A stretch of 64,000 bases of DNA from a bacterium (GTDB taxonomy: Bacteria; Patescibacteriota; Minisyncoccia; Phycocordibacterales; Phycocordibacteraceae), in assembly GCA_021849125.1 (NCBI GenBank), contig JAJZTG010000004.1, positions 1,025 through 65,024 of the forward strand, in the 5' to 3' direction. The notes under the pieces are model-generated. The model saw nothing but the letters and a program-made list of their open reading frames with translations, did not search any database and was not told the DNA's origin. Shown here piece by piece: positions 4,796-39,755 of the stretch. A program made the position numbers and the translations under genes. Position 1 is the stretch's first letter, and each line of letters opens with the position of its first letter.

Positions 4796-4799
4796 CCTT

Positions 4800-4875: not shown

Positions 4876-4886
4876 AATCTGTTTAT

Positions 4887-4954: not shown

Positions 4955-5003
4955 AGAAATGCACTTTTGCGAGTCTATCGCAAAAACTGTCCTACGAACA
5001 GTG

Positions 5004-5421: not shown

Positions 5422-5489
5422 AAGCGAGGGTCGAAATAAAGCTGGCTTTCATTTCACCCGAGCGCAGCGGGTGCAAGCCTGAAAGGCTT

Positions 5490-5640: not shown

Positions 5641-5699
5641 ACCGCAACGGTTTTTGCATCTTACCAGAATGCTCTCGGATTGTCTCCTTTTGATACGGG

Positions 5700-5773
5700 T
5701 GCCGGGGGGCGGGAATGATCCGCCGACCTTAGCGTTATGAATGCTACGCTCTAACCAACTGAGCTACCCCGGC
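5700..5773 (-). tRNA. tRNA-Met (anticodon CAT; could be Ile2-lysidine type) with atypical T-loop
   Basis: GCCGGGG/CCCCGGC acceptor, TAGCA-TTCATAA-CGCTA anticodon arm, T-arm GGCGG-ATCATTC-CCGCC (A54/T58 instead of T54/A58). Confidence 0.75.
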
Positions 5774-5905
5774 AAAGTGAGGCAAACGAAGCGCGGAGCG
5801 CGACTCCGTGAGGGTCGTGAGAAAATCGCGCTCAAGAGTGATTTTATCACGAGACGAAACGAAGTCGGGCCGAAGGCCCGTTTCGCCGAACGTCGCCGGG
5901 GTATG
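5774..5905 (-). repeat. Conserved tRNA leader block, copy 2 (abuts the 5' end of tRNA-Met)
   Basis: Sequence similarity to 5490-5640 including the gaaaatc...gatttt hairpin. Confidence 0.5.
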
Positions 5906-5945
5906 GGCATTTCCATACCACGGCAATCCTACGAGACTACCAGAT

Positions 5946-7520
5946 TTATGCGGGTAGCTCAACGATGAAAGTCGAACCCTTCTCAGCCCCTTCCGACTCT
6001 GCACGGATCGTACCGCCATGCGCTTCCGTGACTTGCTTAGCGATGAAAAGGCCGTAGCCGGTCGAGTTCACGTTCACCTTCTGCGAATCCTTTCCGTGGC
6101 CTCCTTCGGTAAAGAGGTGTGCCTTGTCCTCATCGGTAATACCGACACCCGTGTCTTTCACGCTGAAGACGTACTTGCCTTCGACCTTCTGGAGCGACAC
6201 GGTTATCGAGCCTGTCGGCGTATAGTTGACCGCATTATCGATCAGGTTACGAAGCACATGATCCCCGATCTCGCCCCGATCGCCCATCATGGCGAATGCA
6301 CCCTCAGGAGCCGTAAACGCAAGCGTGAGCCCCTTTACTTCCGCAGCCTGGCGTGCCTTCTCGACAGAATCTTGAACGAGTTCCTTCAGATCAAACGGTT
6401 CCTTCTTGAACGTGGTCGTTCCGCGCTTCAGGTTCGATGCCTTCAAGATATCGCTCACGCTCGTGACGCCATCTTCAGCATCCTGAAGCGCACGTACGAC
6501 GAACGGCTTCATGGTTTCGGAAAGTTCACCCAAATCGCCATCGACCAGGAGCGAGAAGACGCCCTGAGCCTTCGTAAGATACCCCTTCACCTCGTGCCCG
6601 ATGAAGTGGATGAGCCCCTCCTGCCGCTCATTGGTCTCCTTGAGCTCTTCGGTAAGCTGTCGCAGGCTTAGCGTATCTTGTACGATCCGCACGCTCCCGA
6701 GAAGGACGACGAGGAAAGCCGCGATATTAATCGCAATAGCGCTTGCAGAGGTTGAATAGAGGATATTCACGAAACTGAATACCGTGACCATGAAGCCCAA
6801 GAACGCAGTCGTCGCGACCTTCAGATTAAAAAGATGGTGCTTATAGATCGCATATGACGTAAGAGCGACAAAGGGTAAAAGGAAGAGTGCGCCGAGCGGA
6901 ACGAAGCCCGATTCGTTGAAGGCCGCCGGTAGGATGAAATTGAAGGTGAGGAGGAACGTAAACGTGATCGCCATGCCAATGATCACCATCGTATACGGTT
7001 GCCGCTCCCCTTTCGGAGCTCGCATCGTATTGCGCACCAAGCGCCAGATCGCCGTAGCTATGAGATAGAACACAACTATGCCGAAAAGCGGCATCGCGAT
7101 GCCTGGCTGAAGTCCATAGATCGTCCCGCTTGCCGTCACGCTCGTCACGCGTTCAAAGACATACGGGGTAAGTGCCAAGATAGAGACCGTACCCACGACC
7201 GGAATGAGCACGTACATGCCCCATCTCGACTCAAGATAGTGCTCATCGGGAAAGACGGTGGTGAGGTGGTAGAACGTGTACGCATGCCAGACTGCAAAGA
7301 ACATCACTCCGCGCAAGAGCCAGAACGCGAGGTCTCCTGCTGGCAGCTGATATGAGACGTAATTGAAGATGCTCCAAAAGACCGTTATGCCAGCGAAATA
7401 GAAAAAAGCACGGTTCGTCGCGGAGCGCGGATTATGAAAGAGGATAACGAAACCGAGCAAGCCAATACCTGCGACCGCGATGCCTACCGAAAGAAGATCG
7501 AGATTAAGGAATCCATCCAT
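5946..7520 (-). CDS. Sensor histidine kinase with N-terminal multi-TM (7TM-type) sensor domain; no cognate regulator adjacent
   Basis: About 8 predicted TM helices, H-box HEVKGYLT, HATPase_c G-boxes (GYGLFIAKQVTEAHGG). Confidence 0.85.
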   Translation of the reverse strand: MDGFLNLDLLSVGIAVAGIGLLGFVILFHNPRSATNRAFFYFAGITVFWSIFNYVSYQLPAGDLAFWLLRGVMFFAVWHAYTFYHLTTVFPDEHYLESRWGMYVLIPVVGTVSILALTPYVFERVTSVTASGTIYGLQPGIAMPLFGIVVFYLIATAIWRLVRNTMRAPKGERQPYTMVIIGMAITFTFLLTFNFILPAAFNESGFVPLGALFLLPFVALTSYAIYKHHLFNLKVATTAFLGFMVTVFSFVNILYSTSASAIAINIAAFLVVLLGSVRIVQDTLSLRQLTEELKETNERQEGLIHFIGHEVKGYLTKAQGVFSLLVDGDLGELSETMKPFVVRALQDAEDGVTSVSDILKASNLKRGTTTFKKEPFDLKELVQDSVEKARQAAEVKGLTLAFTAPEGAFAMMGDRGEIGDHVLRNLIDNAVNYTPTGSITVSLQKVEGKYVFSVKDTGVGITDEDKAHLFTEGGHGKDSQKVNVNSTGYGLFIAKQVTEAHGGTIRAESEGAEKGSTFIVELPA

Positions 7521-24145: not shown

Positions 24146-24561
24146 AAAAGCCGCCCATTAGGGCGGCTTTTACGTACGTGATGCACCACAAGGGCACTTC
24201 TTGTTTTCTAACTCGCTTCGCTCCTAAGAAAACAATGTCGCCTGGCGGTACTGTACTGATCCCAATGGGGGACGGTACTAGTTCCCCCTCCTTCGTCGGG
24301 ACAGGCTGGCGTCACAATGCGTGCCCCTCGTCGATGACTTCTCGTGACTGCGCAAAACAACAAAGCGCCTACATGGGCGCTTTGTTGTTTTGCTTGTTGC
24401 CCGTGTCGGTACGGTACCCGCCACCGCAAGCAATCCAAAGGTTCTTTGGCGACTCTTCTTCCCTCTTTAGCAATGGGGGCCGGTATGGGTCGACTTTGAG
24501 ATGATTAAAGGATTTTTGGCGAGTTTTGAGTGGCGAACAGGAGGATCGGTACCGTACTAAG
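24146..24561. repeat. Island repeat family, copy A (longest; with internal 19-bp perfect hairpin)
   Basis: Hairpin ccgccc-atta-gggcgg + TTTT, then cgtacgtgatg...cctggcggtacTgtactgatcccaaTgggggAcggtac...; extra gggggccggta modules; hairpin gcaaaacaacaaagcgcc/ggcgctttgttgttttgc. Confidence 0.6.
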
Positions 24562-25555: not shown

Positions 25556-25700
25556 CAAAAGCCGCTCTCTCGAGCGGCTTTTGCGTACGTGATGCCTGGC
25601 GGTACGGTACTGATCCCAACGGGGGCCGGTAAAGGTCGGTTTTGAGATGGTTGGGAGATGTTCAGCGAGTTTTGATGGGCGAATAGGCAGGGCGATGACG
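25556..25700. repeat. Island repeat family, copy B
   Basis: gcaaaagccgctc-tctc-gagcggcttttgc hairpin + gcgtacgtgatgcctggcggtacggtactgatcccaacgggggccggta... Confidence 0.6.
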
Positions 25701-27410: not shown

Positions 27411-27458
27411 TGCTGTACAATAGCACAGGCTATTTGTGCATGAGCGGCTTGTCCCCAA

Positions 27459-27716
27459 GCGCCCCTTCGGGCGGCTTTTGCGTACGTGACGCCTGGCGGT
27501 ACGGTACTGATCCCAACGGGGGCCGGTACTGGTTGCCTCACGTCACAATCGTGTTGCCCGTGTCGGTACCGTACTGGTCCCCATAGGGAGTTACAAGGTT
27601 TTTCAAGCACCTTCCTTCCCCCTTAGTCGACGGGGGCCGGTATGGGTCAGTTTTCAATGGTTTGCAGGGTTTTCGCTCAGCTTTGAGCGTCGAACAAGGG
27701 GGCCGGTACCGAACCA
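27459..27716. repeat. Island repeat family, copy C (three gggggccggta modules)
   Basis: gccccttcgggcggcttttgcgtacgtgacgcctggcggtacggtactgatcccaacgggggccggtac... plus downstream modules shared with copy A. Confidence 0.6.
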
Positions 27717-27891: not shown

Positions 27892-29268
27892 ATGCAAACG
27901 CAAGATATTGCGATCAGCTACGTGCCGATCGCGAGCCTCACTCCCGCGCCTTATAACCCCCGCACCTGGACGGCGGAGGCGCTCGAGCAGCTCAAAGAAA
28001 GCCTGCGGCGATTCGGATTCGTCGATCCGGTCGTCGCCAACAAAGCGCCGGGCCGCGAGAACTTGGTGCTCGGCGGGCACATGCGGATCGTCGCGGCAAT
28101 GGAACTCGGCATCGAAAGCGTGCCCGTGGTGTACGTGAATATTCCGGACGAGCAGAAAGAGCGCGAACTCAATCTTCGCCTCAACAAGAACCAGGGCGAG
28201 TTCGATCTCGCGCTCTTGGCAGAATTCGACGAGTCGTTCCTCGAGGAGGTCGGCTTCTCGAGCGAAGAGCTCGATGCGATCTTCGAAGAGGAGAAGGAAG
28301 AAGAACTCTTCGATCTCGAGAAGGAGCTCGAGCGGATCGGAATCGAGGAAGTGAAGGTGCAGAAGGGCGACGTGTACGACCTGGACGGCTCGCGCCTCAT
28401 GTGCGGCGATTCGACGATCGAAGCCGATATGCTCAGACTCATGGGCGATCAGAAAGCGGACATGGTGATGACCGATCCCCCGTACATTCTTGATTACCTC
28501 CACGGCAAGGGGCGGCACGGTTCAGCAACGACCGGCTTCGGCGCGAAACGTAACCGGCGGTATCTCGAGACGGAAAGCCTGCCGGAAAACTTCACCGAAC
28601 TCTGGATGAACGCCGTCGCCAAAGTCCAAGCACCGGATTTCGCCATCATCGTGTACGAGAATTGGAAAAACATCCGGACGATATGGGACGAGATGGCGAA
28701 GCGCTGGAAGGTGCGGAACATGCTGGTGTGGCACCTCCCCAACCGGAACCAGGGCTACGCGGGCAAGCACAAGTTCTTCTCGAAGTACGATATCGCGATG
28801 GTCGGCACGAGCGACGCGGAACGCGAAGCCGACATGGGCGACGAGGACGAGCTCGTGCAGAACGAATACGAGACGGCGCTCTTCGCGATCTCGGGCAGGC
28901 CGCAGTGGGAGTCGTACGAGAAAGGCAAGAAATACTGCCCGACGGATTTCATCGACTTCAACGCGGCCGACGAAAAGTCCTCGGGACAGGCGATCATCTT
29001 CGGCACGAAGCCGGTCGAGATCCTGATTCCGTACATAAAGGTGCTCACCAAGCGCGGCCAGATCGTGCTTGAGCCATTCGGCGGGAGCGGGTCGACGCTC
29101 ATCGCCTCGAACACGATCGGACGCCGCTGCTACATCATGGAAAAATCCACGGTGTACGCGGAAGTCATCCTTAATCGCTGGACCAAATTCTCGGGCAAGA
29201 CGCCCACCAAACTCTATGCGGCAAATAGCGTCGGAGAAGTTGGCCCTGATTCTGGAGCTCAAGTCTAA
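27892..29268 (+). CDS. ParB-like nuclease domain fused to beta-class N6-adenine/N4-cytosine DNA methyltransferase
   Basis: N-terminal ParB/Srx motif (LVLGGHMRIVAAMELG); motif IV TDPPY followed by C-terminal motif I EPFGGSGST (beta-class order); high-GC segment inside the island. Confidence 0.85.
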   Translation: MQTQDIAISYVPIASLTPAPYNPRTWTAEALEQLKESLRRFGFVDPVVANKAPGRENLVLGGHMRIVAAMELGIESVPVVYVNIPDEQKERELNLRLNKNQGEFDLALLAEFDESFLEEVGFSSEELDAIFEEEKEEELFDLEKELERIGIEEVKVQKGDVYDLDGSRLMCGDSTIEADMLRLMGDQKADMVMTDPPYILDYLHGKGRHGSATTGFGAKRNRRYLETESLPENFTELWMNAVAKVQAPDFAIIVYENWKNIRTIWDEMAKRWKVRNMLVWHLPNRNQGYAGKHKFFSKYDIAMVGTSDAEREADMGDEDELVQNEYETALFAISGRPQWESYEKGKKYCPTDFIDFNAADEKSSGQAIIFGTKPVEILIPYIKVLTKRGQIVLEPFGGSGSTLIASNTIGRRCYIMEKSTVYAEVILNRWTKFSGKTPTKLYAANSVGEVGPDSGAQV

Positions 29269-29815
29269 CCCGATCGTGCTCGCCGCGTGCCGGAAACTCG
29301 GCATACCGACGAGCACGTATTACCGGTGGCGGGATCAGGACACGCGGTTCAGGAAAGAGGCGGACCGTTCGATCAGGAACGGCCGGAGGATGGTCAGCGA
29401 CATGGCCGAAGTTCATGTGCTTAAGGGCGTGAAGCATGGCGACAAGACTTATGTCATGTGGTGGCTCAAGACGTTCTCTCCCGCCTACAAGAAACAGGAG
29501 AAATCGGTAATCGAGATCCGGCAGAAAGACGCAGTGCCCAAGGCAAAGCCCGAAAAGCCGTCGAAGTGGCTGCAGCCGACTGTCCCCATGACCACTGACG
29601 AAGATCTTGAAAAAGCCGATCCGAAACTGGCCAAGCATCTGGAGAGAGCGGTCCGAGGAATCTTCAGGCGGAGCAAGCGTGAGGAAGCTCTCGAGCGCGC
29701 GCTTCGGAAAGCCAATGTGTCTCAGCAGGAGATTGATGCGCTCTTGCAGCAGGTCGACGAGGAGGAAAAGAAGAACGAAGAGCTGAACGAGATGTTCAGG
29801 AAGAAGAAATCCTGA
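29216..29815 (+). CDS. HTH DNA-binding protein (terminase-small-subunit/transposase-like HTH), start uncertain
   Basis: LGIPTSTYYRWRDQ helix-turn-helix; Lys/Glu-rich C-terminus; ORF extends upstream into the MTase in another frame. Confidence 0.45.
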   Translation: MRQIASEKLALILELKSNPIVLAACRKLGIPTSTYYRWRDQDTRFRKEADRSIRNGRRMVSDMAEVHVLKGVKHGDKTYVMWWLKTFSPAYKKQEKSVIEIRQKDAVPKAKPEKPSKWLQPTVPMTTDEDLEKADPKLAKHLERAVRGIFRRSKREEALERALRKANVSQQEIDALLQQVDEEEKKNEELNEMFRKKKS

Positions 29816-29822
29816 AGATTGC

Positions 29823-30278
29823 CTAAGCGCCGTCCCGGAGCTCGTCGAGCTTCTTCTTGATCTCGTACGGACGCTCGATGTGCGCGAACACGATTTCCTC
29901 TCCCCTGCTACCGGCAGTATTGATCCCGAGCGAGCCGGTCTTGTATATCCAGCTGTCGAGGATCGGCTCCACGACGGTGACGTCCGTTATCTTGGAGTAC
30001 TCGGTGGTGGTCAGGTTGGTCGAGAGGAAACCGCGATGGCATAGGACGCGACGGTCGGTGAATGCGAACGCATTCGCCGCCTTCGCGTATACGCCGTAGT
30101 ACCAGACGGCGATGCCGATTGCGATCAGGCCCCACATCCACGAAAGGAAGAAAACGAACACGCCGAAGAATATGCCGAGTCCCATGCAGACGTACCTGTA
30201 GCGATCGCCGACCGAGAATTCGTACTTCACTTCTTCGTCCTTGTTGAGGACCTTGTCCCAAATATGCTGATGCTTCAT
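29823..30278 (-). CDS. Bacterial PH-domain (bPH_2/YdbS-like) membrane protein
   Basis: Two TM helices followed by AFTDRRV... PH-like domain; start chosen at MKHQHIW. Confidence 0.55.
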   Translation of the reverse strand: MKHQHIWDKVLNKDEEVKYEFSVGDRYRYVCMGLGIFFGVFVFFLSWMWGLIAIGIAVWYYGVYAKAANAFAFTDRRVLCHRGFLSTNLTTTEYSKITDVTVVEPILDSWIYKTGSLGINTAGSRGEEIVFAHIERPYEIKKKLDELRDGA

Positions 30279-30537
30279 AGGATTACGCGAGTTGGTAATT
30301 CCTGAGAAGCGGGTACACAAAACCCGCCACCAGGAGCCCTTGCGGGCCTATAGGAGTTTCCCCCTATAACGCATCGAACGCCCTGATGACGGGTTTTCTA
30401 GGTTCGATGCGATTTGTGACCATGCCAGCGGCCGGAGCCATTAGTTTAGGTCGTTACTAGCACAGGGCTAGTACTTAAAGAGTAGCTTAGATAAACGGGT
30501 TTGCGAAGAGGTCCACCAACAGCTAGCAAACAGAGAG

Positions 30538-31506
30538 CTATTTTCGACTTTTTAGGCTTTCGTGTGCGCCTACAAGTAATTGGAGAGCAGCAGCCTGGAA
30601 ACGGTGGTCAGTAACTAGCTGAGGAATTTGGATTGCGCGCACAGATTCCGGAAGAGAATAGTTGGCAAAAACCGAAGATTTTTTGCAGCGCATATCATCA
30701 GCGGGCACCACATCAAGCAATGGCCCATACTCCGCCTCGAAAGTTGTGAGCTTCGATTGAAGTGCCTTCTCGAAATCAAGTGGACGTGATTTTATGTATC
30801 GATGGTTTTTAAAGCCGACCCGCGAAGCCAGCTCCATCAAATCTTTTGCTTCCACGCCCTTCCCTAGAGCCTTCCTCATCAATAGACTCTCATTACTAAC
30901 ATGGTCTCGAATGAATGAGTACTGTTCCAATAAATCAATCCTTTTTCGATGGAGTGTTGCAACAATCAAGGATTCTTGAGCATATGCGCGAAAGGTTCCT
31001 CGGTCGTGGTGCTGCAGAAGTCTGAGAATCTCTGAAACCGCACTTTCGAAATTGCCGATTAAAAGATGTCGTTCAAGTCCGTAATAATAAAGAAATACAT
31101 AACTCAGATTTGTTGGCTTAGTGATATCCCTTAACCAGGAGAGATATTGATATCGATGTTTGGGGGAGAGACGAGAATACGATGGGTAATACATCGGTTC
31201 TTTCTCCAGTTCGTCGTTCTCCTCTACGGGCAATTTTGTCCAAATCAAACTAGGTTCTCCAAAAAAATTATGCCCATCATCAACGTGCGTTTCTACCTCA
31301 CCTGACGAAACGGAAATTGTCATCTTAATTGCCATCGGTGAGGCAATTTTCGATACATCTTCAAAAGTAACCCAGAGAAGTGATTTTGTGGGTTCGGGTA
31401 TGACGAACTGCTTTTTGAGAGACGCGGGAGTATGCACAATGAGTCCCGTAGCCGCTTGTTCCTCAACATCGTGTCTAAGGAAGCGAGAAAGATCCATGTT
31501 AGACAC
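30538..31506 (-). CDS. Hypothetical protein (island operon member)
   Basis: 322-aa ORF, 8-nt overlap with the upstream DUF2779 gene; low-GC. Confidence 0.5.
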   Translation of the reverse strand: MSNMDLSRFLRHDVEEQAATGLIVHTPASLKKQFVIPEPTKSLLWVTFEDVSKIASPMAIKMTISVSSGEVETHVDDGHNFFGEPSLIWTKLPVEENDELEKEPMYYPSYSRLSPKHRYQYLSWLRDITKPTNLSYVFLYYYGLERHLLIGNFESAVSEILRLLQHHDRGTFRAYAQESLIVATLHRKRIDLLEQYSFIRDHVSNESLLMRKALGKGVEAKDLMELASRVGFKNHRYIKSRPLDFEKALQSKLTTFEAEYGPLLDVVPADDMRCKKSSVFANYSLPESVRAIQIPQLVTDHRFQAAALQLLVGAHESLKSRK

Positions 31507-33004
31507 CCACGGCCAGCTGGTAGAGATGCTTCCAAATCACGTACATCGCGAATGTGTCGCGTCCGCAATATATCCTTAGATCTGATGCGATTTGCCTACG
31601 TTCTTCTTCAGGAGCCGTGGGGGATATCATTGACCACCAGGCATCGGAAGCCTGACCGCCTTCATGGATGTTAAGATCTCCGTAATTAAGGTCAGGCGCA
31701 AGCGCGGGAAGCACCTTCTTGATAGAAGTTTTACCTCGAAATTCAGGGTGGACGTAATACTGCTTATGGAATACGTCCTTCAGGTCGTACATCTGTTCAT
31801 TGATCCTTTCCAGAGCCGCCTTGTGATCTGGCAAGCGTGCAGCCATCTCTCTGTTCACACCCTGCTCGAAACTTTTGTTCCAAGAAATAATACTACCCTT
31901 TGCACCGATGCTTCGCACCAACAGATCAGCGAGTGGTTTTGATGGGTCAGATGCGATTTCATGCAGATACTCAACATGTTCCGGTTCGACTGAAGGGTCT
32001 CGAAGAATATGGAGAGAGAATTGAAACGGGATACGACTATATGGGCTATAGCCGTTGAACATGGGAATGGCAGGCGCAAAGGTCTCATAATCTAGGAAAT
32101 AAAGCGGAAAGGTCAACTGCTCCAATTCCTCCCGTATCCTATCGACTTCGATAATTGCCGTTTGCGAGCGATGCACTCGTAGCTGATTCACTTGGATTTC
32201 ACTTAGTTCGATATCAGCCGGAACATCGTTAAGATCGAAAAGTCGCCGCTCGACCATTATTGAGAGTTTCTTCTTACTATTTCCGATACGAGCCAGATCA
32301 TGTATGGAGTACTCCGGCACGTCCGGATTTGAGTATTTGAAGGTTGAGCAATGAGAGCTTCTTCCTGAATAGACACAATCACATCCTTCGGAGGGTTCGT
32401 CTGTTCTTGAAAGATATCCCTTTGCCGCGTCCATCTTTTCTTCAATTTCCGACAAACGGGCGGCTATCTTCTCACTCATGTCCTCCACTAGAAACATCTT
32501 GTCGAGCTCCAAATCTCCGGCGCGCACATATTCTTTGTTGAGATGTATGAGGAAGTATTTGCCAACTTCCACCCTAGCCCGCTTTAGGACGGACGCCTGA
32601 AATGCGAGATCGTCTATGTGGCTTCGATCTGACCCCTCTTCCTTGATCGAATTGGTGCCTTTTATCTCGTAGATATCCCATCGCCTGCTCGTCTCGTCAT
32701 AACCGAGAACATCAACCTTCGTGATAAACCCATCAACAACGAAAGTTGCCTGGAAGATGGCCGAAACCCTTGCGAGCACGAGCCTTTCGGTTTCTCTAAC
32801 TGCCTCGTCCTCGGTAGCAGTTACCTGCACACCTCCTGGGAAAAGATTGCGCGCGTATGTCTCCACTTCGTTTCCCTGCTCGACTAATTGCAACTCGAAT
32901 GGCGAGAGCGAGAACATGTCGAGCAACTCCGGCTTGTGCCGTTTAAGCCAGATATTTTTCGGACACATTAGAAACTCGAGAAAGGTAGTTTTGGAGATCA
33001 TCAT
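31499..33004 (-). CDS. DUF2779-like protein (predicted PD-(D/E)xK-type nuclease N-domain plus RNase-H-like C-domain)
   Basis: N-terminus ISKTTFLEFLMCPKNIWLKRHKPE resembles the DUF2779 signature; C-terminal RIYCGRDTFAMYVIWK. Confidence 0.55.
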   Translation of the reverse strand: MMISKTTFLEFLMCPKNIWLKRHKPELLDMFSLSPFELQLVEQGNEVETYARNLFPGGVQVTATEDEAVRETERLVLARVSAIFQATFVVDGFITKVDVLGYDETSRRWDIYEIKGTNSIKEEGSDRSHIDDLAFQASVLKRARVEVGKYFLIHLNKEYVRAGDLELDKMFLVEDMSEKIAARLSEIEEKMDAAKGYLSRTDEPSEGCDCVYSGRSSHCSTFKYSNPDVPEYSIHDLARIGNSKKKLSIMVERRLFDLNDVPADIELSEIQVNQLRVHRSQTAIIEVDRIREELEQLTFPLYFLDYETFAPAIPMFNGYSPYSRIPFQFSLHILRDPSVEPEHVEYLHEIASDPSKPLADLLVRSIGAKGSIISWNKSFEQGVNREMAARLPDHKAALERINEQMYDLKDVFHKQYYVHPEFRGKTSIKKVLPALAPDLNYGDLNIHEGGQASDAWWSMISPTAPEEERRQIASDLRIYCGRDTFAMYVIWKHLYQLAVGV

Positions 33005-33014
33005 GGAACGATAC

Positions 33015-36000
33015 CTAAATAACGGGTTTTATTCCTAGTTCTTCCAATTTTCCCCACAAACTATCAAGTGCCCCTTCTTTGTGGCGATAGAACGAACTAC
33101 CTGTGATACGCCAAAATTCCCATCCCGCACGACGCAATTGTCGTTCGCGTACTTGATCTTCTTCCCAATTCTCGAGCGTATGATACTGATCTCCGTCACA
33201 CTCCACCGCAAGACGAGCTTCGGCACCCTGCACGACTAAATCGATACGGTAACCAATTACGGGATATTCCGGCAGGACCTGATATCCCTTATCAAGGATG
33301 AGATTCCCAACCTCATATGAGAATTGTGATGCTCGTCCAGAATCGAATTCTTTCTTAAGTGCTTCCCGACCCGCCTTGAGCTCTTCTTTCTTCGGATCGT
33401 AGTACCAATTGAGGAGCTTGAATCGCCAGTCGTTCTGATTTCTGAATTCTTCCAAGGGAATTGAATGGAAAAGGAATACCTGGTCGCGTGCGCGAGTGGC
33501 AGCCACATTGAAGCGCTGCGCTGCCCCCTTGTCAGTGAGAGGGGCGATGGTGTCATTTGGTTTGTTGGGATCGAGAGCTCGGACCATCGATAGGAGCATT
33601 ACGTCGCGTTCATCGCCTTGAAAGGCGTAAGCGTCTCCGCAGATGATTTTTCGCTCTTCGATCACCTTCTCTCCGATCTTGGGATGCTTCAAAATGAGAT
33701 CCTTGATGTATTTTGCTTGGTCCTCAGCAAGCAAGGAGATAACCCCGAATGTGCAGAGATGACCATCTGGCCGCTTCTGATAATTCGGATCTTCAAGAAG
33801 CTCAACGAGTTTATCGACAATCGCCTTCGCCTCGGGCTCGTTTACCTTGTTGTTTGTATTTTGATATCCACCCCCAATTAAGATAGGCACGAGAGCCGGT
33901 TTAAGAAGACCTTTCGGATTAGGATGCCGAAGCGGCTGAAGCTTGTGGTCATAAATATAATGATTACTAAATTCGATAATATCTGGAACACATCTAAAAT
34001 GTTCATTCAGTTGGATCATGTTAGGAATTCTTATCTTCGCCAGGTCAAAGAGGCTCGAAGTTATCGAGAAATTATCCTTATGAGGGATATCGAAGAGGAA
34101 TCGAGAAATGAGTTCAAAGATCTTTTCTTGATCCTGGAAGATTCCCGCCGGGCTGATCTGGTCAGGGTCACCCACGACAAGCAATTTCTTACCAAGATAA
34201 CCGATAGTAAGACCGCGAATATCGCACTGACTTGCCTCATCGAAGATCACGACATCGAACATGCCGGGAATAGGATCTGAGAACATTTGAGCTACGCGGT
34301 GCAAGGGCATGATCCATACAGGGACCGCATTCTTTGCCTCCTTAAGAGACTGCTGCGCCGAATTGAGCCACTTGTTGGCATATTTGCCGGTTCCCTTTCC
34401 GTACTTCTTCATCGCATCGGACCATGCCATCAGAGCATCGCGCTGACGCTTGGTAACCTTGTCGATTTGGCGCTGCCAGGCAAGCACCGTAACAAGCTCA
34501 GAATTCAGTTCGAATTCTTTCTTGGTCAGACGCTCGAGCTGACCCTGGAGATTGTCGATGTCGTCATGATCGTGAATGCTATTGAGCCACGATTCGAGTC
34601 GAGCGACCTTCCAAGCCACGAGCAAATTGTCCGGACATTCAAATTTCTGCTTCTGATCAGCAAGCTCGATGATCTCTCCGCAAAGTTGAGGAACCTGCTT
34701 CTTAAGCAGTTCGCACAATTCATTGATCCTAATGGCCTTCTCTTTCTTTCCTACAAGTAGATCAAGCTTCTCAGTGCAGCTTTTCCAACCGGAAGAATTA
34801 TGCTTCACAATTGCCTGTGCAAGCTCATCAACAATTGCGTGCTGTGTGCGGAAATTCACAGATGATCGAATGGCTTCTTCCCATTCAGTAAATGACTTCT
34901 CGAGGTTCTTTAGCTCGAAAGCAGCCGCGCGTGACGCAGTAAGTTCGATGGCAGTATCAATATCTTCCTTTTTGATAAATGAGAGATCGGAGAGTTCCTT
35001 TACCTCATTGAAGCAAGCGTCGATGGCTGAGAAATCAGAGCGGTAATTCACCAATCTCTGAAGGCCCGCAACGAATACCTCGAGCTTAACCATATCGAGG
35101 CGATCCATGTCGATTTCAAGCGGATTCTTGAGCGTCGACAGACCTTGTTCGAGAAGCGTCTTGATGTCGCGCTCCGCAGACTCAACAAGTATCGAGTTCC
35201 GCAGGATCTCTACCCTCTCCGGACTGTCTGGCTCGACACCATCCACCTTGTACATTTCAAGAATGCGCTTTGCGTTTCCAGGAAGGAGCATTTTACCGAA
35301 TGTTCCCAACTTGCCCTTTGATGCTTTTGCATATAACGCTTCTATCGCTTCACGGAGATCATGAGGTGAGAGATTCGATTGTCCTGAAATGATGTGACCG
35401 ATTGAGCTGTTCTTACCCTTTGCAACAATCTGAATCTTATCTGAAATCTTTGAAAGAATGGTGGACCACTTTTCGCGCTCATTCTGACTAATAGTGCATG
35501 CGTCGAAGATTTCCTGTTCGTAGTCTTTATTGATTGATCCCAAGACCCTCTTTGCCTTGTTGAGCAATTCCCACAGCTGACCCAGTTTCTCTTGATCAAT
35601 CTTTGCCTTACTGAATGCCTCGTCAGAAGATTTAGATTTTGCGCTGAGATCACGATATGAGGCAAAAGCACTGAGCACCACATCTTCATTTGGAAGGGTT
35701 GAAGGATCAGGCAGATCCTCTTTGTAGAGGGTACGATCTACAGCTTCTACTTCTCGAGCGAGATCGTAGAGCTCCTGCAGATCTTCTTCGGTAAATTCAG
35801 GATCAGCATCGAATGGAACCTTATCGGTGAACCACGCAACAGCTTCGTTATCTTTATTCTTATCAACAAACTTTGCAGCATCGATCGGCTTAATTTCTGC
35901 ACCATCAATAACTAACTTCTCTGATGAATCAGTGAGAATGTACTGCCGGATCTTTGATGCAAGAGTGGCTTTCTCTTCACGAACCTTCTTAAGATCTCTT

Positions 36001-37811
36001 CGAACATTCTCCGCTCGAGCATCGCTGAATTTGGTATCTCTTTCACCCAAATTTGAGCTAATTTCCGCGATCGATTGCTGAAGCACGTCATCGCGCTTCG
36101 CGGTCTGCTGCAATTGAGATACTGCAAGGCTTCTGATGTTTTCAGGAAGCTTGTCACGCAAGACCTCCAGGGCTTTACTGGTTTGAGAAGTCACCAACAC
36201 GCTTTTACCTTCTGCAAGGAAGCGTGAGATCAGGTTTGCAATAGTGTGACTCTTTCCGGTGCCCGGTGGACCTTTTACGACAACACCATAATTTGCGTCG
36301 AGTCGTTCCGCGATTCTTTTCTGTTCATCATTCCAAGGCAATGGGAAAAAGAGCTCTGATTCAGGAATAGAGACATTGCCGCCTGCTGCCCTCTCGCCAG
36401 ATCCATCATGGGCACCTATAGGAGCCTCGTCATATTCACCAACGAGGTCAGCAATGAATTCGGTTGCTTCAACACCATATTGTTCGATATCTTTTCGAAT
36501 AGTGGCCGCGTACTTTGACCACATATCGTTTGTTCGCTTGCGTGCGAAGATCACTGGCGCATTCCAGATGCTTGGATTCTTTGAAGCCGTAGGGGCCGAT
36601 ACGATTTCATCGGTGAATTGATCCTCTCCATCCGGTGAGATGTAGTTGATAAGCGTCTGAGCCTGGCCTTTCAGTGTCTCAAGGTGCCAGAAGTCAAAAG
36701 GGTTGGTATTGATGGTATCTCCCCACGTGATGAGATCCATTTCTGCCGGGTTGTCAGTTTCATAGAGCGCTGAAGTCTCTACAAAATTTCTGAACATGGG
36801 ATCAGGATTGATCTCAATTGTTCGCTTTGAGGCATCGAAATCGAGCGTGAGCGGGCTTAAGAAGATCGGAGTGTAGATCGTACCTACACCTTGATGCTGC
36901 CAGGCCAAAACACCGTGACCCAAAAGGAGTTCATAGTTGTCGCCTTCATTCTTGAGAAGCAATCGGAGTGCGTAAAGCTGATCATAAAGAAGGTTTGCCT
37001 TATAGACTTTCTTCACCTGCTCTGCCCAAGGTTTCCAGTCATTCTCGGTATACCCATTGAGAAGCTTCGCGAGCGCCGGATGATCCACCCAATGATCAGG
37101 CTCATATCTCACACTAATGATTTCTGGTAGCTTGTTTGGCAAAATAGTTACCCAATCCTTCAAGCTTTCAGGAATATCATCTCCTTGCTCGTAATTCTTG
37201 CGGAAGTCTCTGAATTCCTTCTCACGATCCTTGTCATCAGCAAATCGGACCTTGCGATCGATCTTTTCTTTAGCAATCGGTGCTTGCAACGGATTCACTT
37301 CGTCAATCCATTCTTCGAGAAGGCTTGGCAACTCCGGTGCTGCTTTGATGTTTTTCTTTTCTACCTTGAGCCAAGAAGTGGACTGTACACCCTCAGGAGT
37401 TTTTTCAGTATCAAAAGGACGGATGGTTAGGTTCTCGAGATCTGTTGGATAGTCAGCAAGCCACCAAGGGGAAGGTGCTGCACTAGTGGTGCGGAAATCT
37501 CTAATAATTGAATCATCAATTGCGAGAGCTTTCTCCAAATATGTAAAGAGTCGGATGACTTTATTTTGTGCTTCTGCAGAAAGATTGGAGACACGCTTCA
37601 CCCGAGACTCTGTAACCTCAATATCCGTGGGGCTTGAGATCTCAACGACAGACTTCTGATTCTTGAGAATTTCGCGTTGCTGCTTCATGGCTTCCGCTTT
37701 GCATTCAGAACACACCGTGCCCTGTTTGACTTTGTGTTTCTTGCAGACAGTGCATAGAGGTTTGGTTGCCCAATATCGCCTTGCATCAAATTTGCTGCGA
37801 TAGGGCGACAT
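33015..37811 (-). CDS. 1598-aa SF1 (Upf1-like, AAA_11/AAA_12) helicase with N-terminal zinc ribbon and DUF4011-like region and C-terminal DUF559/Vsr-like endonuclease domain (Hhe-like)
   Basis: CTVCKKHK...CSECK zinc ribbon; Walker A GPPGTGKSH; motif II VVIFDEASQ; LVVGDPDQISP; motif VI NVAATRARD; C-terminal GYRIDLVVQGAEARLAVECDGDQYH (DUF559/MTES_1575-type). Confidence 0.85.
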   Translation of the reverse strand: MSPYRSKFDARRYWATKPLCTVCKKHKVKQGTVCSECKAEAMKQQREILKNQKSVVEISSPTDIEVTESRVKRVSNLSAEAQNKVIRLFTYLEKALAIDDSIIRDFRTTSAAPSPWWLADYPTDLENLTIRPFDTEKTPEGVQSTSWLKVEKKNIKAAPELPSLLEEWIDEVNPLQAPIAKEKIDRKVRFADDKDREKEFRDFRKNYEQGDDIPESLKDWVTILPNKLPEIISVRYEPDHWVDHPALAKLLNGYTENDWKPWAEQVKKVYKANLLYDQLYALRLLLKNEGDNYELLLGHGVLAWQHQGVGTIYTPIFLSPLTLDFDASKRTIEINPDPMFRNFVETSALYETDNPAEMDLITWGDTINTNPFDFWHLETLKGQAQTLINYISPDGEDQFTDEIVSAPTASKNPSIWNAPVIFARKRTNDMWSKYAATIRKDIEQYGVEATEFIADLVGEYDEAPIGAHDGSGERAAGGNVSIPESELFFPLPWNDEQKRIAERLDANYGVVVKGPPGTGKSHTIANLISRFLAEGKSVLVTSQTSKALEVLRDKLPENIRSLAVSQLQQTAKRDDVLQQSIAEISSNLGERDTKFSDARAENVRRDLKKVREEKATLASKIRQYILTDSSEKLVIDGAEIKPIDAAKFVDKNKDNEAVAWFTDKVPFDADPEFTEEDLQELYDLAREVEAVDRTLYKEDLPDPSTLPNEDVVLSAFASYRDLSAKSKSSDEAFSKAKIDQEKLGQLWELLNKAKRVLGSINKDYEQEIFDACTISQNEREKWSTILSKISDKIQIVAKGKNSSIGHIISGQSNLSPHDLREAIEALYAKASKGKLGTFGKMLLPGNAKRILEMYKVDGVEPDSPERVEILRNSILVESAERDIKTLLEQGLSTLKNPLEIDMDRLDMVKLEVFVAGLQRLVNYRSDFSAIDACFNEVKELSDLSFIKKEDIDTAIELTASRAAAFELKNLEKSFTEWEEAIRSSVNFRTQHAIVDELAQAIVKHNSSGWKSCTEKLDLLVGKKEKAIRINELCELLKKQVPQLCGEIIELADQKQKFECPDNLLVAWKVARLESWLNSIHDHDDIDNLQGQLERLTKKEFELNSELVTVLAWQRQIDKVTKRQRDALMAWSDAMKKYGKGTGKYANKWLNSAQQSLKEAKNAVPVWIMPLHRVAQMFSDPIPGMFDVVIFDEASQCDIRGLTIGYLGKKLLVVGDPDQISPAGIFQDQEKIFELISRFLFDIPHKDNFSITSSLFDLAKIRIPNMIQLNEHFRCVPDIIEFSNHYIYDHKLQPLRHPNPKGLLKPALVPILIGGGYQNTNNKVNEPEAKAIVDKLVELLEDPNYQKRPDGHLCTFGVISLLAEDQAKYIKDLILKHPKIGEKVIEERKIICGDAYAFQGDERDVMLLSMVRALDPNKPNDTIAPLTDKGAAQRFNVAATRARDQVFLFHSIPLEEFRNQNDWRFKLLNWYYDPKKEELKAGREALKKEFDSGRASQFSYEVGNLILDKGYQVLPEYPVIGYRIDLVVQGAEARLAVECDGDQYHTLENWEEDQVRERQLRRAGWEFWRITGSSFYRHKEGALDSLWGKLEELGIKPVI

Positions 37812-37815
37812 ATCA

Positions 37816-38136
37816 TTATTTAACTATATCTTGACCCAAAGGCCCCTCAATAAGCTTGATTGTTTCTTTTACGAACTCCTCCCACGTATACGAACCCTTA
37901 TACCAAAGGAGGACGGCATCCGTTCTATGTTTTAAGAGTTTGAGGAACTTCTGCCAAGTAAAACCATTGGGTTTTAATGCGTCTTTCCACTCCCTCCACA
38001 GATATTGAGGCAGCTTATTCCCGTACCAGACATTTAAGGAATCCCAATTTATTCGGCCTGACTTATCAGTCATACCTTCAATCTTTCGAATCCACTCTTT
38101 TACCTCTATGGGCTCTTTGGGCACTGATAATTTCAT
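37816..38136 (-). CDS. Small hypothetical protein immediately upstream of the helicase gene
   Basis: Longer ORF (to 38451) overlaps the recombinase start on the other strand, so the internal MKLSVPKEP start is preferred; 4-nt gap to the helicase ATG. Confidence 0.4.
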   Translation of the reverse strand: MKLSVPKEPIEVKEWIRKIEGMTDKSGRINWDSLNVWYGNKLPQYLWREWKDALKPNGFTWQKFLKLLKHRTDAVLLWYKGSYTWEEFVKETIKLIEGPLGQDIVK

Positions 38137-38241
38137 ACCCCAAGTATATAGGGCATCAAGGAAATTGCAAAGTCTGCCTAGACTCCCTGCGCGGATTGCG
38201 TCATCCCTTGGGGTGTGCGAATTATCAAGTAAACAACGGAC

Positions 38242-39579
38242 ATGCCAACGGAAATAGGGACAGGAACGGGCGTTTTGGGGGCAAAACCGGCACCCCAGGA
38301 GGCGGTAAGGGTGCGGTACTGCCTCTACGCCAGAAAGAGCACCGAGCAGGACGAAATGCAGGCGCTCTCGATAGATAGCCAGATCAAGGAGATGACCGCG
38401 CTTGCGGCGAGGGACGGACTGGAGGTCGTCGAGGTAAAACGTGAAAGCCACTCGGCCAAAGAGGCCAGCCGGAGGCCGGTATTCAATGAGATGCTGGACG
38501 GGATTCGCACTGGCAGGTTCAACGGGATACTGACATGGGCGGCAGACCGCATCAGCCGCAACGCAGGCGACCTCGGGAGGGTCGTCGACCTGATGGATGC
38601 AGGAGTGTTAGTGCAGATACAGACATACAGTCAGAAGTTCTCGAACAATCCGAACGAGAAATTCCTTCTGATGATTCTCTGTTCGCAGGCGAAGCTCGAG
38701 AACGACAATAAAAGTCTGAACGTGAAGCGCGGTCTGCGGACGCGAGCTGAAATGGGCATGCTCCCCGGCTGGGCACCGGTCGGATACCTGAATGACAACC
38801 GCTCGGATCATAAATGCGAGTACCTCCTGGACCCGGTACGCGCACCAGTCGTGAAAATGATCTTCGAGAAGGTCGGCAAAGAAAAATGGAGCGGCGTGCG
38901 TGTCTATCACTGGCTTAAAGAAGAGGTCGGGTTCAAAACGCGGAGCGGTGTGAATCTGAACTTGAGCACGATTTACACCGTGCTAAAAAATCCATTCTAC
39001 TGCGGCGTATTTGAGTACCCGCGCGGTTCGGGCAACTGGTATGTCGGCAAGCACCCTCCCCTGATATCGAGAGAGCTGTTCGAGATGGTTAGACAGAAAG
39101 TGCTCGAGGAGACGAAGCCGCATGCCAAGACGGATGGCTTCGCGTTTCTCCGCATGATGACATGCGGCGACTGCGGATCGGGCGTAACGGCTATCGAAAA
39201 GGAGAAAATCATCAAAGGCACCGGTGAATCAAAGATCTATAGGTACTACGTTTGCGGCCGTTCGCGCGACCGACGTTGCAAGAATCCGTATGTCCGCGAG
39301 GACGCGCTTGTCGAACAACTCTGCGCCCTTATAGACGAGATTGAAATAGACCGCCTCGGCGCGAGGGCGCTTATCGAAAAGGAGGTTGCCCGGTTCAATA
39401 AGATGCAGTCGAAGGTAATGGGGACAAAGATAGCGGAGAAGGCCCGCGATGTAGATATCAAACGCTATGCAAAGTACCTGCTCGAAGAAGGCACGACCGA
39501 AGAGAAGAGGCAGCTTCTAGAGCAATTGCGCGGCAAGCTTGTACTTTCAAATAAGGAGATCGTCCTAGCGCAAGGCTAA
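38242..39579 (+). CDS. Large serine recombinase (resolvase/invertase catalytic domain + recombinase domain + zinc ribbon)
   Basis: YARKSTEQ catalytic-serine motif, ...GDLGRVVDLMDAGV..., CGDCGSG...YYVCG zinc ribbon; start possibly a few codons downstream. Confidence 0.85.
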   Translation: MPTEIGTGTGVLGAKPAPQEAVRVRYCLYARKSTEQDEMQALSIDSQIKEMTALAARDGLEVVEVKRESHSAKEASRRPVFNEMLDGIRTGRFNGILTWAADRISRNAGDLGRVVDLMDAGVLVQIQTYSQKFSNNPNEKFLLMILCSQAKLENDNKSLNVKRGLRTRAEMGMLPGWAPVGYLNDNRSDHKCEYLLDPVRAPVVKMIFEKVGKEKWSGVRVYHWLKEEVGFKTRSGVNLNLSTIYTVLKNPFYCGVFEYPRGSGNWYVGKHPPLISRELFEMVRQKVLEETKPHAKTDGFAFLRMMTCGDCGSGVTAIEKEKIIKGTGESKIYRYYVCGRSRDRRCKNPYVREDALVEQLCALIDEIEIDRLGARALIEKEVARFNKMQSKVMGTKIAEKARDVDIKRYAKYLLEEGTTEEKRQLLEQLRGKLVLSNKEIVLAQG

Positions 39580-39584: not shown

Positions 39585-39684
39585 AAGCCGCGACAAGTCG
39601 TCGCGGCTTTTGCTTACGTGATGCCCGTCGGTACCGTACTGGCCTTTGGGCGGGCCGGTACTGGTTCCTGGCGTCACAACCGTG
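39585..39684. repeat. Island repeat family, copy D = trailer and terminator of the tRNA-fMet-like gene (also terminates the recombinase gene)
   Basis: gccgcgac-aagtc-gtcgcggc hairpin flanked by A/T tracts, then gcttacgtgatgcccgtcggtaccgtactgg...gggcgggccggtactgg... Confidence 0.6.
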
Positions 39685-39755
39685 TTGCGGGGGCCGGAAT
39701 CGAACCGGCGTCTGGAGGTTATGAGCCTCCCGAGGTACCTCTCCTCTACCCCGCT
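39685..39755 (-). tRNA. Initiator-like tRNA-Met (anticodon CAT) with A1:A72 mismatch; 3' end identical to E. coli tRNA-fMet (TCCGGCCCCCGCAAC)
   Basis: Manual fold: AGCGGGG/CCCCGCA acceptor (1:72 unpaired), GAGG/CCTC D-stem, GGAGG-CTCATAA-CCTCC anticodon arm, GCCGG-TTCGATT-CCGGC T-arm, 4-nt variable loop. Confidence 0.6.

What the first reader, a model, noticed from the sequence alone, without database searches (positions are those of the whole stretch)
29823..38136. Five-gene low-GC operon around a 1598-aa helicase with a Vsr/DUF559 endonuclease domain and a DUF2779 nuclease: candidate antiviral or nucleic-acid-surveillance module of unusual composition
Seen in sequence: five co-directional, tightly spaced or overlapping genes on the minus strand, all markedly AT-richer than the genome. 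They are a 106-aa unknown (37816-38136), a 1598-aa protein, a DUF2779-like protein (31499-33004), a 322-aa unknown (30538-31506) and a bPH_2 membrane protein (29823-30278). The 1598-aa protein has an N-terminal zinc ribbon, a long DUF4011-like region, SF1 helicase motifs (GPPGTGKSH, VVIFDEASQ, VVGDPDQISP, NVAATRARD) and a C-terminal DUF559/Vsr-type endonuclease (VECDGDQYH). The DUF2779-like protein is predicted to be a PD-(D/E)xK nuclease N-domain plus an RNase-H-like C-domain. Established knowledge: single-gene helicase plus Vsr-like endonuclease proteins of this architecture (Hhe-type) have been reported as anti-phage defence proteins. Inference: a fixed partnership with a DUF2779 nuclease and three unknown genes is not a combination I recognise, and it sits in a mobile island beside a ParB-methyltransferase and a serine recombinase. 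It may be an undescribed multi-gene defence system or an element-encoded DNA-processing machine.
Basis: partly seen in the sequence, partly recalled or inferred. Interest (0 to 1): 0.75.

Follow-up and report, generated by a model that had tools for sequence, protein, structure and literature searches.

The report
Mobile helicase-nuclease cassette with swappable partners
The five genes are not one fixed system: they are cargo of a small integrating mobile element, built around a stand-alone helicase-nuclease that resembles known single-gene anti-phage proteins, and its neighbouring genes differ from genome to genome.

Summary
The genes are real and sit at the stated coordinates. The "fixed five-gene system" does not hold.

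- **Helicase:** the 1598-aa protein has a zinc ribbon, an unannotated N-domain, an Upf1-like SF1 helicase core and a Vsr-type (MTES_1575) nuclease. Its nearest models are ProA, PDC-S37 and Hhe. It scores far below both curated cut-offs (ProA and Hhe) and has no DUF4011 hit.
- **Partners in 35 non-redundant close relatives (at least 57% identity) with enough flank:** DUF2779 follows the helicase in 16. Other predicted nucleases (DUF2130, Cas4-like) follow it in about 10. TerB_N and bPH_2 follow it in none.
- **Sister contigs:** only three (L138, L144 and L145, the last two near-identical) repeat the block u106–helicase–DUF2779–TerB_N. None has bPH_2, whose GC content is host-like.
- **Independence of the partners:** close DUF2779 and TerB_N relatives also occur alone, some in housekeeping contexts. 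Helicase and DUF2779 divergence are uncorrelated.
- **Wider family:** relatives at 30–40% identity are mostly solitary.
- **Mobility:** the cassette rides serine- or tyrosine-recombinase elements, often next to tRNA genes (tRNA-Met here).
- **u106:** it is a real gene and probably a DNA-binding regulator.

Best reading: a probable defence helicase-nuclease on a mobile element, with a facultative second nuclease. This is a new variant of a known kind and of moderate interest.

The parts
39684..39755 (-). tRNA-Met gene next to the recombinase end of the element. This is the likely integration site.
   Evidence: ARAGORN. Related loci show the same layout of tRNA, recombinase, helicase with other tRNAs: Ser, Gln, Asn, Glu.
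38242..39579 (+). Large serine recombinase (445 aa), divergent from the cassette. It is the element's integrase.
   Evidence: Pfam Resolvase + Recombinase + Zn_ribbon_recom. A homologue lies next to the helicase in 21 related loci. It is 86% identical in the sister element L144.
38143..38170 (-). Promoter-like site (TTGCAA-16-TATACT) just upstream of the u106 start codon.
   Evidence: Consensus scan. The number of matches in the region is not above the shuffled expectation, so this is weak evidence.
37816..38136 (-). u106, a 106-aa Trp-rich protein and putative DNA-binding regulator of the cassette.
   Evidence: - No Pfam, PADLOC or NCBIfam hit.
- Under purifying selection.
- 87-94% identical in L006 and L144/L145.
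- The family has 115 clusters. Some members are fused N-terminally to Peptidase_S24 or to TPR-PIN proteins.
- In other loci the same position holds XRE or MerR HTH genes.
36372..37811 (-). Helicase N-terminal region, residues 1-480. It comprises a CxxC...CxxC zinc ribbon (37701-37754) and a conserved domain with no family assignment.
   Evidence: Residues are conserved across the clade. No credible Pfam hit (only a sub-threshold DZR_2 match, E 0.065). The AlphaFold model is unusable (pLDDT 46). Homologues at 30-40% identity align from about residue 80.
33471..36332 (-). Upf1-like SF1B helicase core, residues 494-1447, with a helical insertion of about 600 aa between motifs Ia and II.
   Evidence: Pfam AAA_11, AAA_12, AAA_30. 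PDB sequence hits are Sen1, Upf1 and DNA2. Motifs GPPGTGKSH, DEASQ, GDPxQ and the arginine finger are invariant.
33045..33323 (-). C-terminal Vsr-type restriction-endonuclease-fold domain (MTES_1575), residues 1497-1589.
   Evidence: PF18741, E 1.6e-26. D1524, E1537, D1539 and H1544 are invariant. Translation checked.
31499..33004 (-). DUF2779 nuclease. The N-half is Cas4-like PD-(D/E)xK with four Cys; the C-half is a DnaQ-like 3'-5' exonuclease. It is a facultative partner of the helicase.
   Evidence: PF11074, 145 bits. PADLOC Cas4, 2.3e-5. Conserved catalytic residues. It lies directly downstream of the helicase in 16/35 close loci.
30538..31506 (-). TerB_N-domain protein (322 aa) that overlaps the DUF2779 stop codon. 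It is an add-on specific to this element lineage.
   Evidence: PF13208, 1.4e-16; PADLOC SngA, 3.4e-15. It follows DUF2779 only in L138, L144 and L145. Elsewhere it is solitary.
29823..30278 (-). bPH_2 membrane protein (151 aa). It is adjacent but not part of the conserved block.
   Evidence: PF03703. GC 0.566. Absent from all 150 related loci, including the sister element. A gap of about 259 nt separates it from TerB_N.
27892..29815 (+). Convergent pair: a ParB_N-N6_N4 DNA methyltransferase (27892-29268) and a 199-aa ORF (29216-29815). These are element backbone genes.
   Evidence: Pfam. PADLOC type II / orphan MTase. Homologues are present in sister element L144 (64%) and in L139.

Best explanation
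Window positions about 27.5-39.7 kb hold a roughly 12-kb integrative element driven by a serine recombinase and inserted beside tRNA-Met. The host is a Patescibacteria-type genome (NCBI assembly GCA_027321305.1).

**Cargo**
- The main cargo is a low-GC cassette built around one self-sufficient protein. That protein combines an Upf1-like SF1B helicase with a C-terminal Vsr-type endonuclease.
- It is of the same kind as the single-gene anti-phage proteins ProA, Hhe and PDC-S37, but it belongs to a separate family.

**Most likely mechanism (inferred, not shown)**
1. The N-terminal zinc ribbon and unannotated domain recognise invading DNA or a replication intermediate.
2. The helicase translocates 5'-3' on a single strand.
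3. The Vsr-type domain nicks or cuts.

**Accessory genes**
- The gene just upstream (u106 here; XRE or MerR HTH genes elsewhere) is a transcriptional regulator.
- The gene just downstream is an optional, interchangeable second nuclease. Here it is DUF2779, a Cas4-like Fe-S nuclease fused to a DnaQ-like exonuclease. It would resect the ends the helicase exposes. Together the pair has the domain make-up of Dna2 or AddAB, split over two proteins.
- TerB_N is a recent add-on confined to this element lineage.
- bPH_2 is an unrelated neighbour.
For: - **Domains and catalytic residues:**
- **Helicase is solitary in the wider family.** 37 of 64 loci at 30-40% identity have no co-directional gene within 250 nt. 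The downstream genes scanned (24 of 27) show no recurring family.
- **Downstream slot in 35 close loci:** DUF2779 in 16, DUF2130 in 6, Cas4+RNase_H_2 in 1, Cas4-like PDDEXK_1 in 2, SNase in 1.
- **Partner swapping.** In L120 the helicase is 85% identical but DUF2779 only 47%. Pairwise identities are uncorrelated (rho 0.08).
- **Solo DUF2779.** Solitary genes nest next to the window's in the tree and sit in housekeeping contexts.
- **Mobility.** A recombinase is adjacent in 21 loci and tRNA genes are nearby. L096 has a tyrosine integrase and a duplicated tRNA-Ile. In L120 a host ATPase gene follows about 300 nt after DUF2779.
- **Sister element.** L144 has the same backbone without bPH_2.
- **u106.** Coding signal and fusions.
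- **GC.** The low-GC block covers only u106 to TerB_N.
Against: - There is no experimental evidence of defence for this family.
- It scores far below the curated cut-offs for ProA (234 bits against 1500) and Hhe (118 against 2000). Function is therefore transferred across families.
- The unusually high conservation (63-69% identity across phyla) is atypical of fast-evolving defence genes.
- A nuclease gene in the downstream slot in 26/35 close loci could reflect a real functional dependence, which would make 'self-sufficient' too strong.
- The N-terminal domain could not be modelled.
- Upf1-like helicases can act on RNA, so the substrate is uncertain.
- The element's left border rests only on weak repeats (68-70% identity).
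Confidence: 0.6

Rival explanations
1. The helicase and the gene just downstream form a true two-component system. The second component is a modular, exchangeable PD-(D/E)xK nuclease effector (DUF2779, DUF2130 or Cas4-like). In this lineage TerB_N is a third subunit and u106 is the repressor.
For: - 26/35 close loci carry a predicted nuclease gene within about 20 nt of the helicase stop codon, or overlapping it. These genes come from at least four families, and 19 of them are Cas4-like.
- An Omnitrophota helicase only 29-32% identical (L069) also carries DUF2779 downstream.
- COG2251-type Cas4+RNase H proteins are reported to occur together with tandem AAA domains (PMC3985635).
- TerB_N is translationally coupled to DUF2779 in four contigs.
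- Shango pairs a TerB-like protein with a helicase (PMC10250203).
Against: - 9/35 close loci and most distant relatives have no such partner.
- Helicase and DUF2779 show no co-divergence.
- The nearest DUF2779 relatives are solitary, some next to UvrA/UvrB or DinB-type genes.
- The helicase already carries its own intact nuclease.
- TerB_N relatives sit between MurJ and LepA.
Confidence: 0.25
2. The helicase-nuclease and DUF2779 serve the mobile element itself. They would process DNA for excision, replication, transfer or exclusion of competing elements, rather than defend against phage.
For: The helicase is often next to serine or tyrosine recombinases and ParB-methyltransferases. It is strongly conserved across hosts, as expected of an element core gene.
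Against: - 11 of 20 close loci with enough upstream sequence have no recombinase upstream.
- In L120 the pair sits between a Fic gene and a host ATPase with no recombinase nearby.
- Distant relatives are solitary chromosomal genes in Bacillota, Actinomycetota and Nitrospirota.
- No relaxase, replication initiator or conjugation genes were seen in the element.
- The helicase travels on two unrelated integrase types, so it behaves as cargo rather than backbone.
Confidence: 0.1
3. These are ordinary chromosomal DNA-repair genes that happen to lie together.
For: DUF2779 relatives at 58-61% identity sit in stable housekeeping contexts in many Patescibacteria genomes. A DUF2779 gene is described as quasi-essential in the minimal Mycoplasma JCVI-syn3.0 (PMC13621843).
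Against: - The block is about 10 GC points below its host.
- It is flanked by a recombinase and a tRNA gene.
- The helicase is patchily distributed and lies in different genomic places in related genomes.
Confidence: 0.05

Closest known systems
ProA anti-phage protein (NCBIfam NF058533)
   Same: It is the best-scoring curated model (E 2.7e-69). The alignment spans the helicase core, the long insertion and the C-terminal nuclease: residues 480-1592 against profile positions 637-1706.
   Different: The score is 234 bits against a cut-off of 1500. The first ~636 profile positions (N-terminal region) are unmatched, so the N-terminal region differs. The whole wider family scores only 180-265 bits. 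I could not find the primary paper on ProA.
Hhe (PADLOC PDLC02194; NCBIfam NF042953)
   Same: One large polypeptide that combines an SF1 helicase with a C-terminal Vsr/DUF559-type nuclease. It is annotated as a single-gene anti-phage protein.
   Different: The match covers only residues 1150-1592. The score is 118 bits against a cut-off of 2000. No DUF4011 domain was detected.
PADLOC candidate PDC-S37
   Same: It is the best PADLOC hit (9.3e-61) and covers residues 497-1591. It is a single-gene candidate.
   Different: About 300 N-terminal and 200 C-terminal profile positions are unmatched. To my knowledge PDC systems are untested candidates.
CoCoNuT type III-B CnuH (PMC11090510)
   Same: An Upf1-like SF1 helicase with a coiled-coil insertion, fused to a Vsr-like nuclease.
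   Different: CoCoNuTs are defined by their CnuB/McrB GTPase and CnuC/McrC partners. None of the genes in or next to this element, all of which were scanned, is of that kind.
Shango (SngABC; PMC10250203)
   Same: A TerB-type protein encoded near a helicase in a defence setting. The window's TerB_N protein hits the SngA model (3.4e-15).
   Different: Only the TerB_N segment matches (profile positions 58-181 of 528). There is no SngB ATPase. The helicase is Upf1-like SF1, not the DEAD/DEAH SngC. The TerB_N link is confined to one element lineage.
Dna2 / AddAB-type helicase-nuclease machines
   Same: The helicase plus DUF2779 together supply an SF1 helicase and a Cas4/RecB-family nuclease with four conserved cysteines. 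That is the domain set of Dna2 (a PDB hit).
   Different: The domains lie on separate, non-co-evolving proteins. The helicase adds a Vsr-type nuclease and DUF2779 adds a DnaQ-like exonuclease. This is an analogy only.

Membership tests
Hhe | Full-length match above the curated NCBIfam cut-off (2000 bits) | tested here: not met
   118 bits, covering residues 1150-1592 only.
Hhe | N-terminal DUF4011 domain | tested here: not met
   No DUF4011 hit for the whole protein at E <= 0.01 or for residues 1-480 at E <= 0.1.
Hhe | SF1 helicase core plus a C-terminal Vsr/DUF559-type nuclease in one polypeptide | tested here: met
   AAA_11, AAA_12 and MTES_1575 (1.6e-26). Catalytic residues are invariant.
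Hhe / ProA | Protects against phage when expressed | not testable with these tools
   Needs a cloning and phage-challenge experiment.
ProA (NF058533) | Score above the equivalog cut-off (1500 bits) | tested here: not met
   234 bits. Six wider-family members score 179-265 bits.
PADLOC PDC-S37 | Full-length match to the single-gene model | tested here: inconclusive
   E 9.3e-61, 204 bits, profile positions 298-1340 of 1550. No threshold is available in this tool.
Mokosh type II (MkoC) | RNA-helicase core plus a PLD-family nuclease domain | tested here: not met
   The MkoC model hits only the helicase part, residues 922-1481. No PLD domain appears in Pfam.
Shango | Three genes: a TerB-like SngA, the SngB ATPase and the SngC DEAD/DEAH helicase | tested here: not met
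   There is only a partial SngA (TerB_N) hit. No SngB or SngC hits for any of the five proteins.
CoCoNuT | McrB-type GTPase and McrC partner genes next to the CnuH helicase | tested here: not met
   All neighbouring genes were scanned and none is McrB- or McrC-like.
DUF2779 (PF11074) | Pfam gathering threshold, with a Cas4-like N-domain and a DEDD exonuclease C-domain | tested here: met
   145 bits against 23.3. Cas4 hit. Conserved D/E/K, four Cys and DEDDy residues.
UU173 family (NF045869) | Score above the cut-off (225 bits) | tested here: not met
   52 bits, C-terminal part only.
Large serine recombinase integrative element | Resolvase, Recombinase and Zn-ribbon domains, next to the cargo and an integration target | tested here: met
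   A tRNA-Met gene lies about 100 nt away. The same layout recurs in related loci. The exact att sites were not determined.

The most novel reading that the evidence does not exclude
In Patescibacteria this helicase-nuclease is the constant 'motor' of a previously undescribed modular defence system. Its second component is an interchangeable Cas4-family or DUF2130 nuclease effector. It is controlled by an exchangeable small repressor (u106, XRE or MerR) and is sometimes extended by TerB_N. The system spreads between phyla on recombinase elements that target tRNA genes.
Probability: 0.25. Interest if true: 0.6.

Novelty: new variant of a known kind. Interest (0 to 1): 0.35.

Why it matters
- **Known kind, new setting.** Single-protein helicase-nuclease defence genes are already known. 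This work shows that a distinct, very highly conserved family of them is widespread in Patescibacteria (the candidate phyla radiation), whose immune repertoire is poorly charted.
- **Mobility.** The family moves as cargo of small integrase elements.
- **The variable nuclease slot.** The position just after the helicase is filled by DUF2779, DUF2130 or Cas4-like nucleases. This gives a testable handle on DUF2779, a widespread uncharacterised family.
- **A caution for annotation.** Tight spacing and shared low GC content in one genome did not predict a conserved operon here.

Tried and rejected
- **AlphaFold model of the helicase N-terminal 480 aa (20-sequence alignment):** pLDDT 46, unusable, so no fold search was run.
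- **AlphaFold model of the TerB_N protein:** pLDDT 76, but no PDB fold match (best E 0.16).
- **PDB sequence search with the helicase profile:** only generic Upf1, Sen1 and DNA2 cores.
- **Literature on 'ProA' and PDC-S37:** no primary paper found.
- **att sites.** The only candidates are a repeat of about 75 nt present four times. The two copies that bracket the element are 68-70% alike, and the repeat is absent around the sister element. I therefore do not claim exact borders.
- **L120 as a clean insertion between genes that are adjacent in the window.** Rejected, because the upstream genes are unrelated.
- **Iterated HMM searches for TerB_N and bPH_2 across the 80 genome loci, and tblastn across all 136:** no hits.
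- **Prophage origin.** PHROGs gave only generic helicase hits, and viral contigs gave two distant hits.
Full report

ORF listing confirms the minus-strand ORFs:

| Coordinates | Product |
|---|---|
| 37816-38136 | 106 aa (u106). The mechanical ORF runs on to a GTG at 38451, but conservation begins at the ATG at 38136. |
| 33015-37811 | 1598 aa |
| 31499-33004 | 501 aa |
| 30538-31506 | 322 aa |
| 29823-30278 | 151 aa |

- GC falls to 0.45-0.48 across 30-38 kb, against 0.55-0.60 in the flanks.
- Per gene the low-GC block is u106 (0.411), helicase (0.467), DUF2779 (0.481) and TerB_N (0.444).
- bPH_2 (0.566), the recombinase (0.549) and the ParB-methyltransferase (0.585) are host-like.
- Spacers are 4 nt, 10 nt and an 8-nt overlap. 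About 259 nt then separates TerB_N from bPH_2.

**2. What the five proteins are**

*Helicase.*
- Pfam gives AAA_11, AAA_12 and AAA_30, which make up an Upf1-like SF1 core, plus MTES_1575 (E 1.6e-26). MTES_1575 is a Vsr-family restriction-endonuclease fold defined in PMC3710099.
- DUF559 scores below its cut-off. DUF4011 is not detected, even for residues 1-480 at E <= 0.1.
- The best curated models are ProA (234 bits against a cut-off of 1500) and Hhe (118 against 2000). The best PADLOC model is the candidate PDC-S37 (9.3e-61).
- PDB sequence hits are only Sen1, Upf1 and DNA2.
- The helicase motifs and nuclease residues D1524, E1537, D1539 and H1544 are invariant in a 13-sequence family alignment.

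*The 501-aa protein* is DUF2779 (145 bits).
- Its N-half is Cas4-like.
- Conserved residues are D98/E113/K115, C14/C208/C210/C219 and D305/E307/D407/Y479/D483.
- This fits the published prediction of a PD-(D/E)xK domain joined to a 3'-5' exonuclease (PMC3985635 and PMC13621843).

*The 322-aa 'unknown'* is a TerB_N protein.

*The 151-aa protein* is a two-helix membrane bPH_2 protein.

*u106* has no family hit but is a real gene.
- Against L144 and L006, 23/30 and 42/58 substitutions fall at codon position 3.
- Its family has 115 clusters at 50% identity.
- Some members are fused N-terminally to Peptidase_S24, which is the DNA-binding-domain position of LexA/CI-type repressors. Others are fused to TPR-PIN conflict proteins.

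**3. Is the partnership conserved?**

The helicase family is large. More than 120 clusters at 90% identity are 63-93% identical to the query, and those that carry a source name are Patescibacteria.

I fetched 80 genome loci and 56 metagenome loci. Among 46 non-redundant close relatives (at least 57% identity), 35 have at least 1.5 kb of downstream sequence.

*Gene immediately downstream of the helicase in those 35 loci*

| Downstream gene | Loci |
|---|---|
| DUF2779 | 16 |
| DUF2130, two subfamilies (a PD-(D/E)xK superfamily member per PMC3424549) | 6 |
| Cas4+RNase_H_2 protein | 1 |
| Small Cas4-like PDDEXK_1 nucleases | 2 |
| Unknown gene followed by an SNase | 1 |
| No such partner, or a host gene | 9 |
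| TerB_N | 0 |
| bPH_2 | 0 |

- The slot just upstream usually holds a small regulator: an XRE HTH gene in 15 loci, a MerR/HTH_17 gene in 4, and u106 in the window, L006 and L144/L145.
- In the wider family (30-40% identity; Bacillota, Actinomycetota, Nitrospirota, Planctomycetota and others), 37 of 64 loci have no co-directional gene within 250 nt. Of the 27 that do, 24 were scanned, and no Pfam family recurs among them.
- These distant members also score far below the ProA cut-off, so the whole family is separate from ProA and Hhe.

**4. The view from the partner genes**

*DUF2779.*
- Its closest relative (84% identity) lies in L144/L145. L144 is a sister element with this layout: recombinase (86%), u106 (94%), helicase (91%), DUF2779, TerB_N (89%), a 196-aa unknown, a 296-aa ORF and a ParB-methyltransferase (64%). 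It has no bPH_2.
- The next relatives are solitary:
  - L146 (75%) lies near a DGR-like reverse transcriptase.
  - L147 (71%) follows methyltransferases and a HEPN gene.
  - L148-L151 (58-61%) sit in stable housekeeping contexts next to UvrA/UvrB or DinB-type genes.
- In a neighbour-joining tree the window's DUF2779 groups with these solitary genes, not with most helicase-linked ones.
- Pairwise helicase and DUF2779 identities are uncorrelated (rho 0.08). L120 has an 85%-identical helicase but a 47%-identical DUF2779.

*TerB_N.*
- It follows DUF2779 only in L138, L144 and L145.
- Other relatives lie beside a serine recombinase and a ParB-methyltransferase (L139), beside a recombinase and a different helicase (L140), or between MurJ and LepA (L141-L143).

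**5. Mobility**

- The recombinase has the Resolvase, Recombinase and Zn-ribbon domains and lies about 100 nt from tRNA-Met.
- A homologous recombinase is adjacent to the helicase in 21 related loci. tRNA genes (Ser, Gln, Asn, Glu) often flank it.
- In L096 the helicase and DUF2779 sit in a 13.6-kb segment. A tyrosine integrase lies at one end, and two near-identical tRNA-Ile genes bracket the segment.
- In L120 the pair is preceded by a Fic gene. A host copper ATPase gene follows about 300 nt downstream, and its homologue in the window lies 20 kb away.
- Only two distant hits occur in viral contigs.
- The cassette is therefore cargo that moves between different element backbones.

**6. Interpretation**

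- The best-supported reading is a self-contained helicase-nuclease with three kinds of accessory: a small regulator upstream, an optional interchangeable second nuclease downstream, and lineage-specific additions (TerB_N). It is probably an anti-mobile-element defence protein, judged by analogy with ProA, Hhe and PDC-S37.
- bPH_2 is an unrelated neighbour.
- Shown here: the domain content, the conservation pattern, the mobility and the absence of a fixed five-gene set.
- Inferred: the defence role, the substrate and the resection role of DUF2779.
- The recurrent nuclease in the downstream slot (26/35 loci) keeps a two-component model alive at about 25%.

**7. Novelty and score**

- The kind (an SF1 helicase fused to a Vsr-type nuclease) is known.
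- The family is distinct in four ways: different N-terminal domains, scores below both curated cut-offs, a Patescibacteria-centred spread, and a variable nuclease slot.
- I rate it a new variant of a known kind, with interest 0.35.

Noticed in passing
window 24146-24286, 25557-25640, 27454-27537, 39586-39669: An intergenic sequence of about 75-140 nt occurs four times. Each copy begins with a terminator-like hairpin followed by TTTTGCGTACGTGATGCC...GGTAC.GTACTG...GGCCGGTACTGGT. The last two copies bracket the 12-kb recombinase element, and the first three separate single genes. These could be att-like scars of serial insertions or a reused regulatory cassette.
   Followed up: partly
L005 4091-9642 (Omnitrophota MAG JANPFV010000103.1): Three ORFs of about 920 aa lie in tandem just upstream of the helicase and cluster together as paralogues. 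The one scanned (4091-6892) fuses a Cas4-like nuclease, an RNase_H_2 domain and an IS66-family DDE transposase. This is an unusual transposase architecture.
   Followed up: partly
window 37816-38136; P0366, P0371, P0367, P0368: The u106 domain has no Pfam model. It forms a family of 115 clusters at 50% identity. It is found fused to Peptidase_S24 (LexA/CI-like layout) and to 1400-aa TPR + PIN-TPR-GreABC proteins. It is probably an undescribed DNA-binding domain of conflict systems.
   Followed up: partly
window 37689-37811 and 37816-38136 (source contig DAHVJR010000001.1): The public annotation starts the helicase at Met42 (1557 aa) and so loses the conserved zinc ribbon. It calls no gene for u106.
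   Followed up: yes
L096 1-13932: The helicase+DUF2779 pair lies inside a 13.6-kb segment. A tyrosine integrase sits at one end and two near-identical tRNA-Ile genes bracket the segment. This is a different element backbone from the window's serine-recombinase element.
   Followed up: partly
helicase family (P0001-P0120): The full 1600-aa protein stays 63-69% identical between Saccharibacteria, Paceibacterota, Woesebacteria, Levybacteria, Omnitrophota and a Bacilli MAG. The adjacent DUF2779 is mostly 37-48% identical (56-84% in L096, L006 and the sister element). That is unusually strong conservation for a presumed defence gene.
   Followed up: no
L001 14958-16007 and L146 8885-10258: Reverse-transcriptase genes (RVT_1; in L146 with a bAvd, so DGR-like) lie next to the helicase or to a solitary DUF2779 in related elements.
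   Followed up: no
window 4800-5774: A cluster of four tRNA genes (Thr-CGT, Thr-GGT, Asp, Met) lies on the minus strand. It appears ordinary.
   Followed up: no
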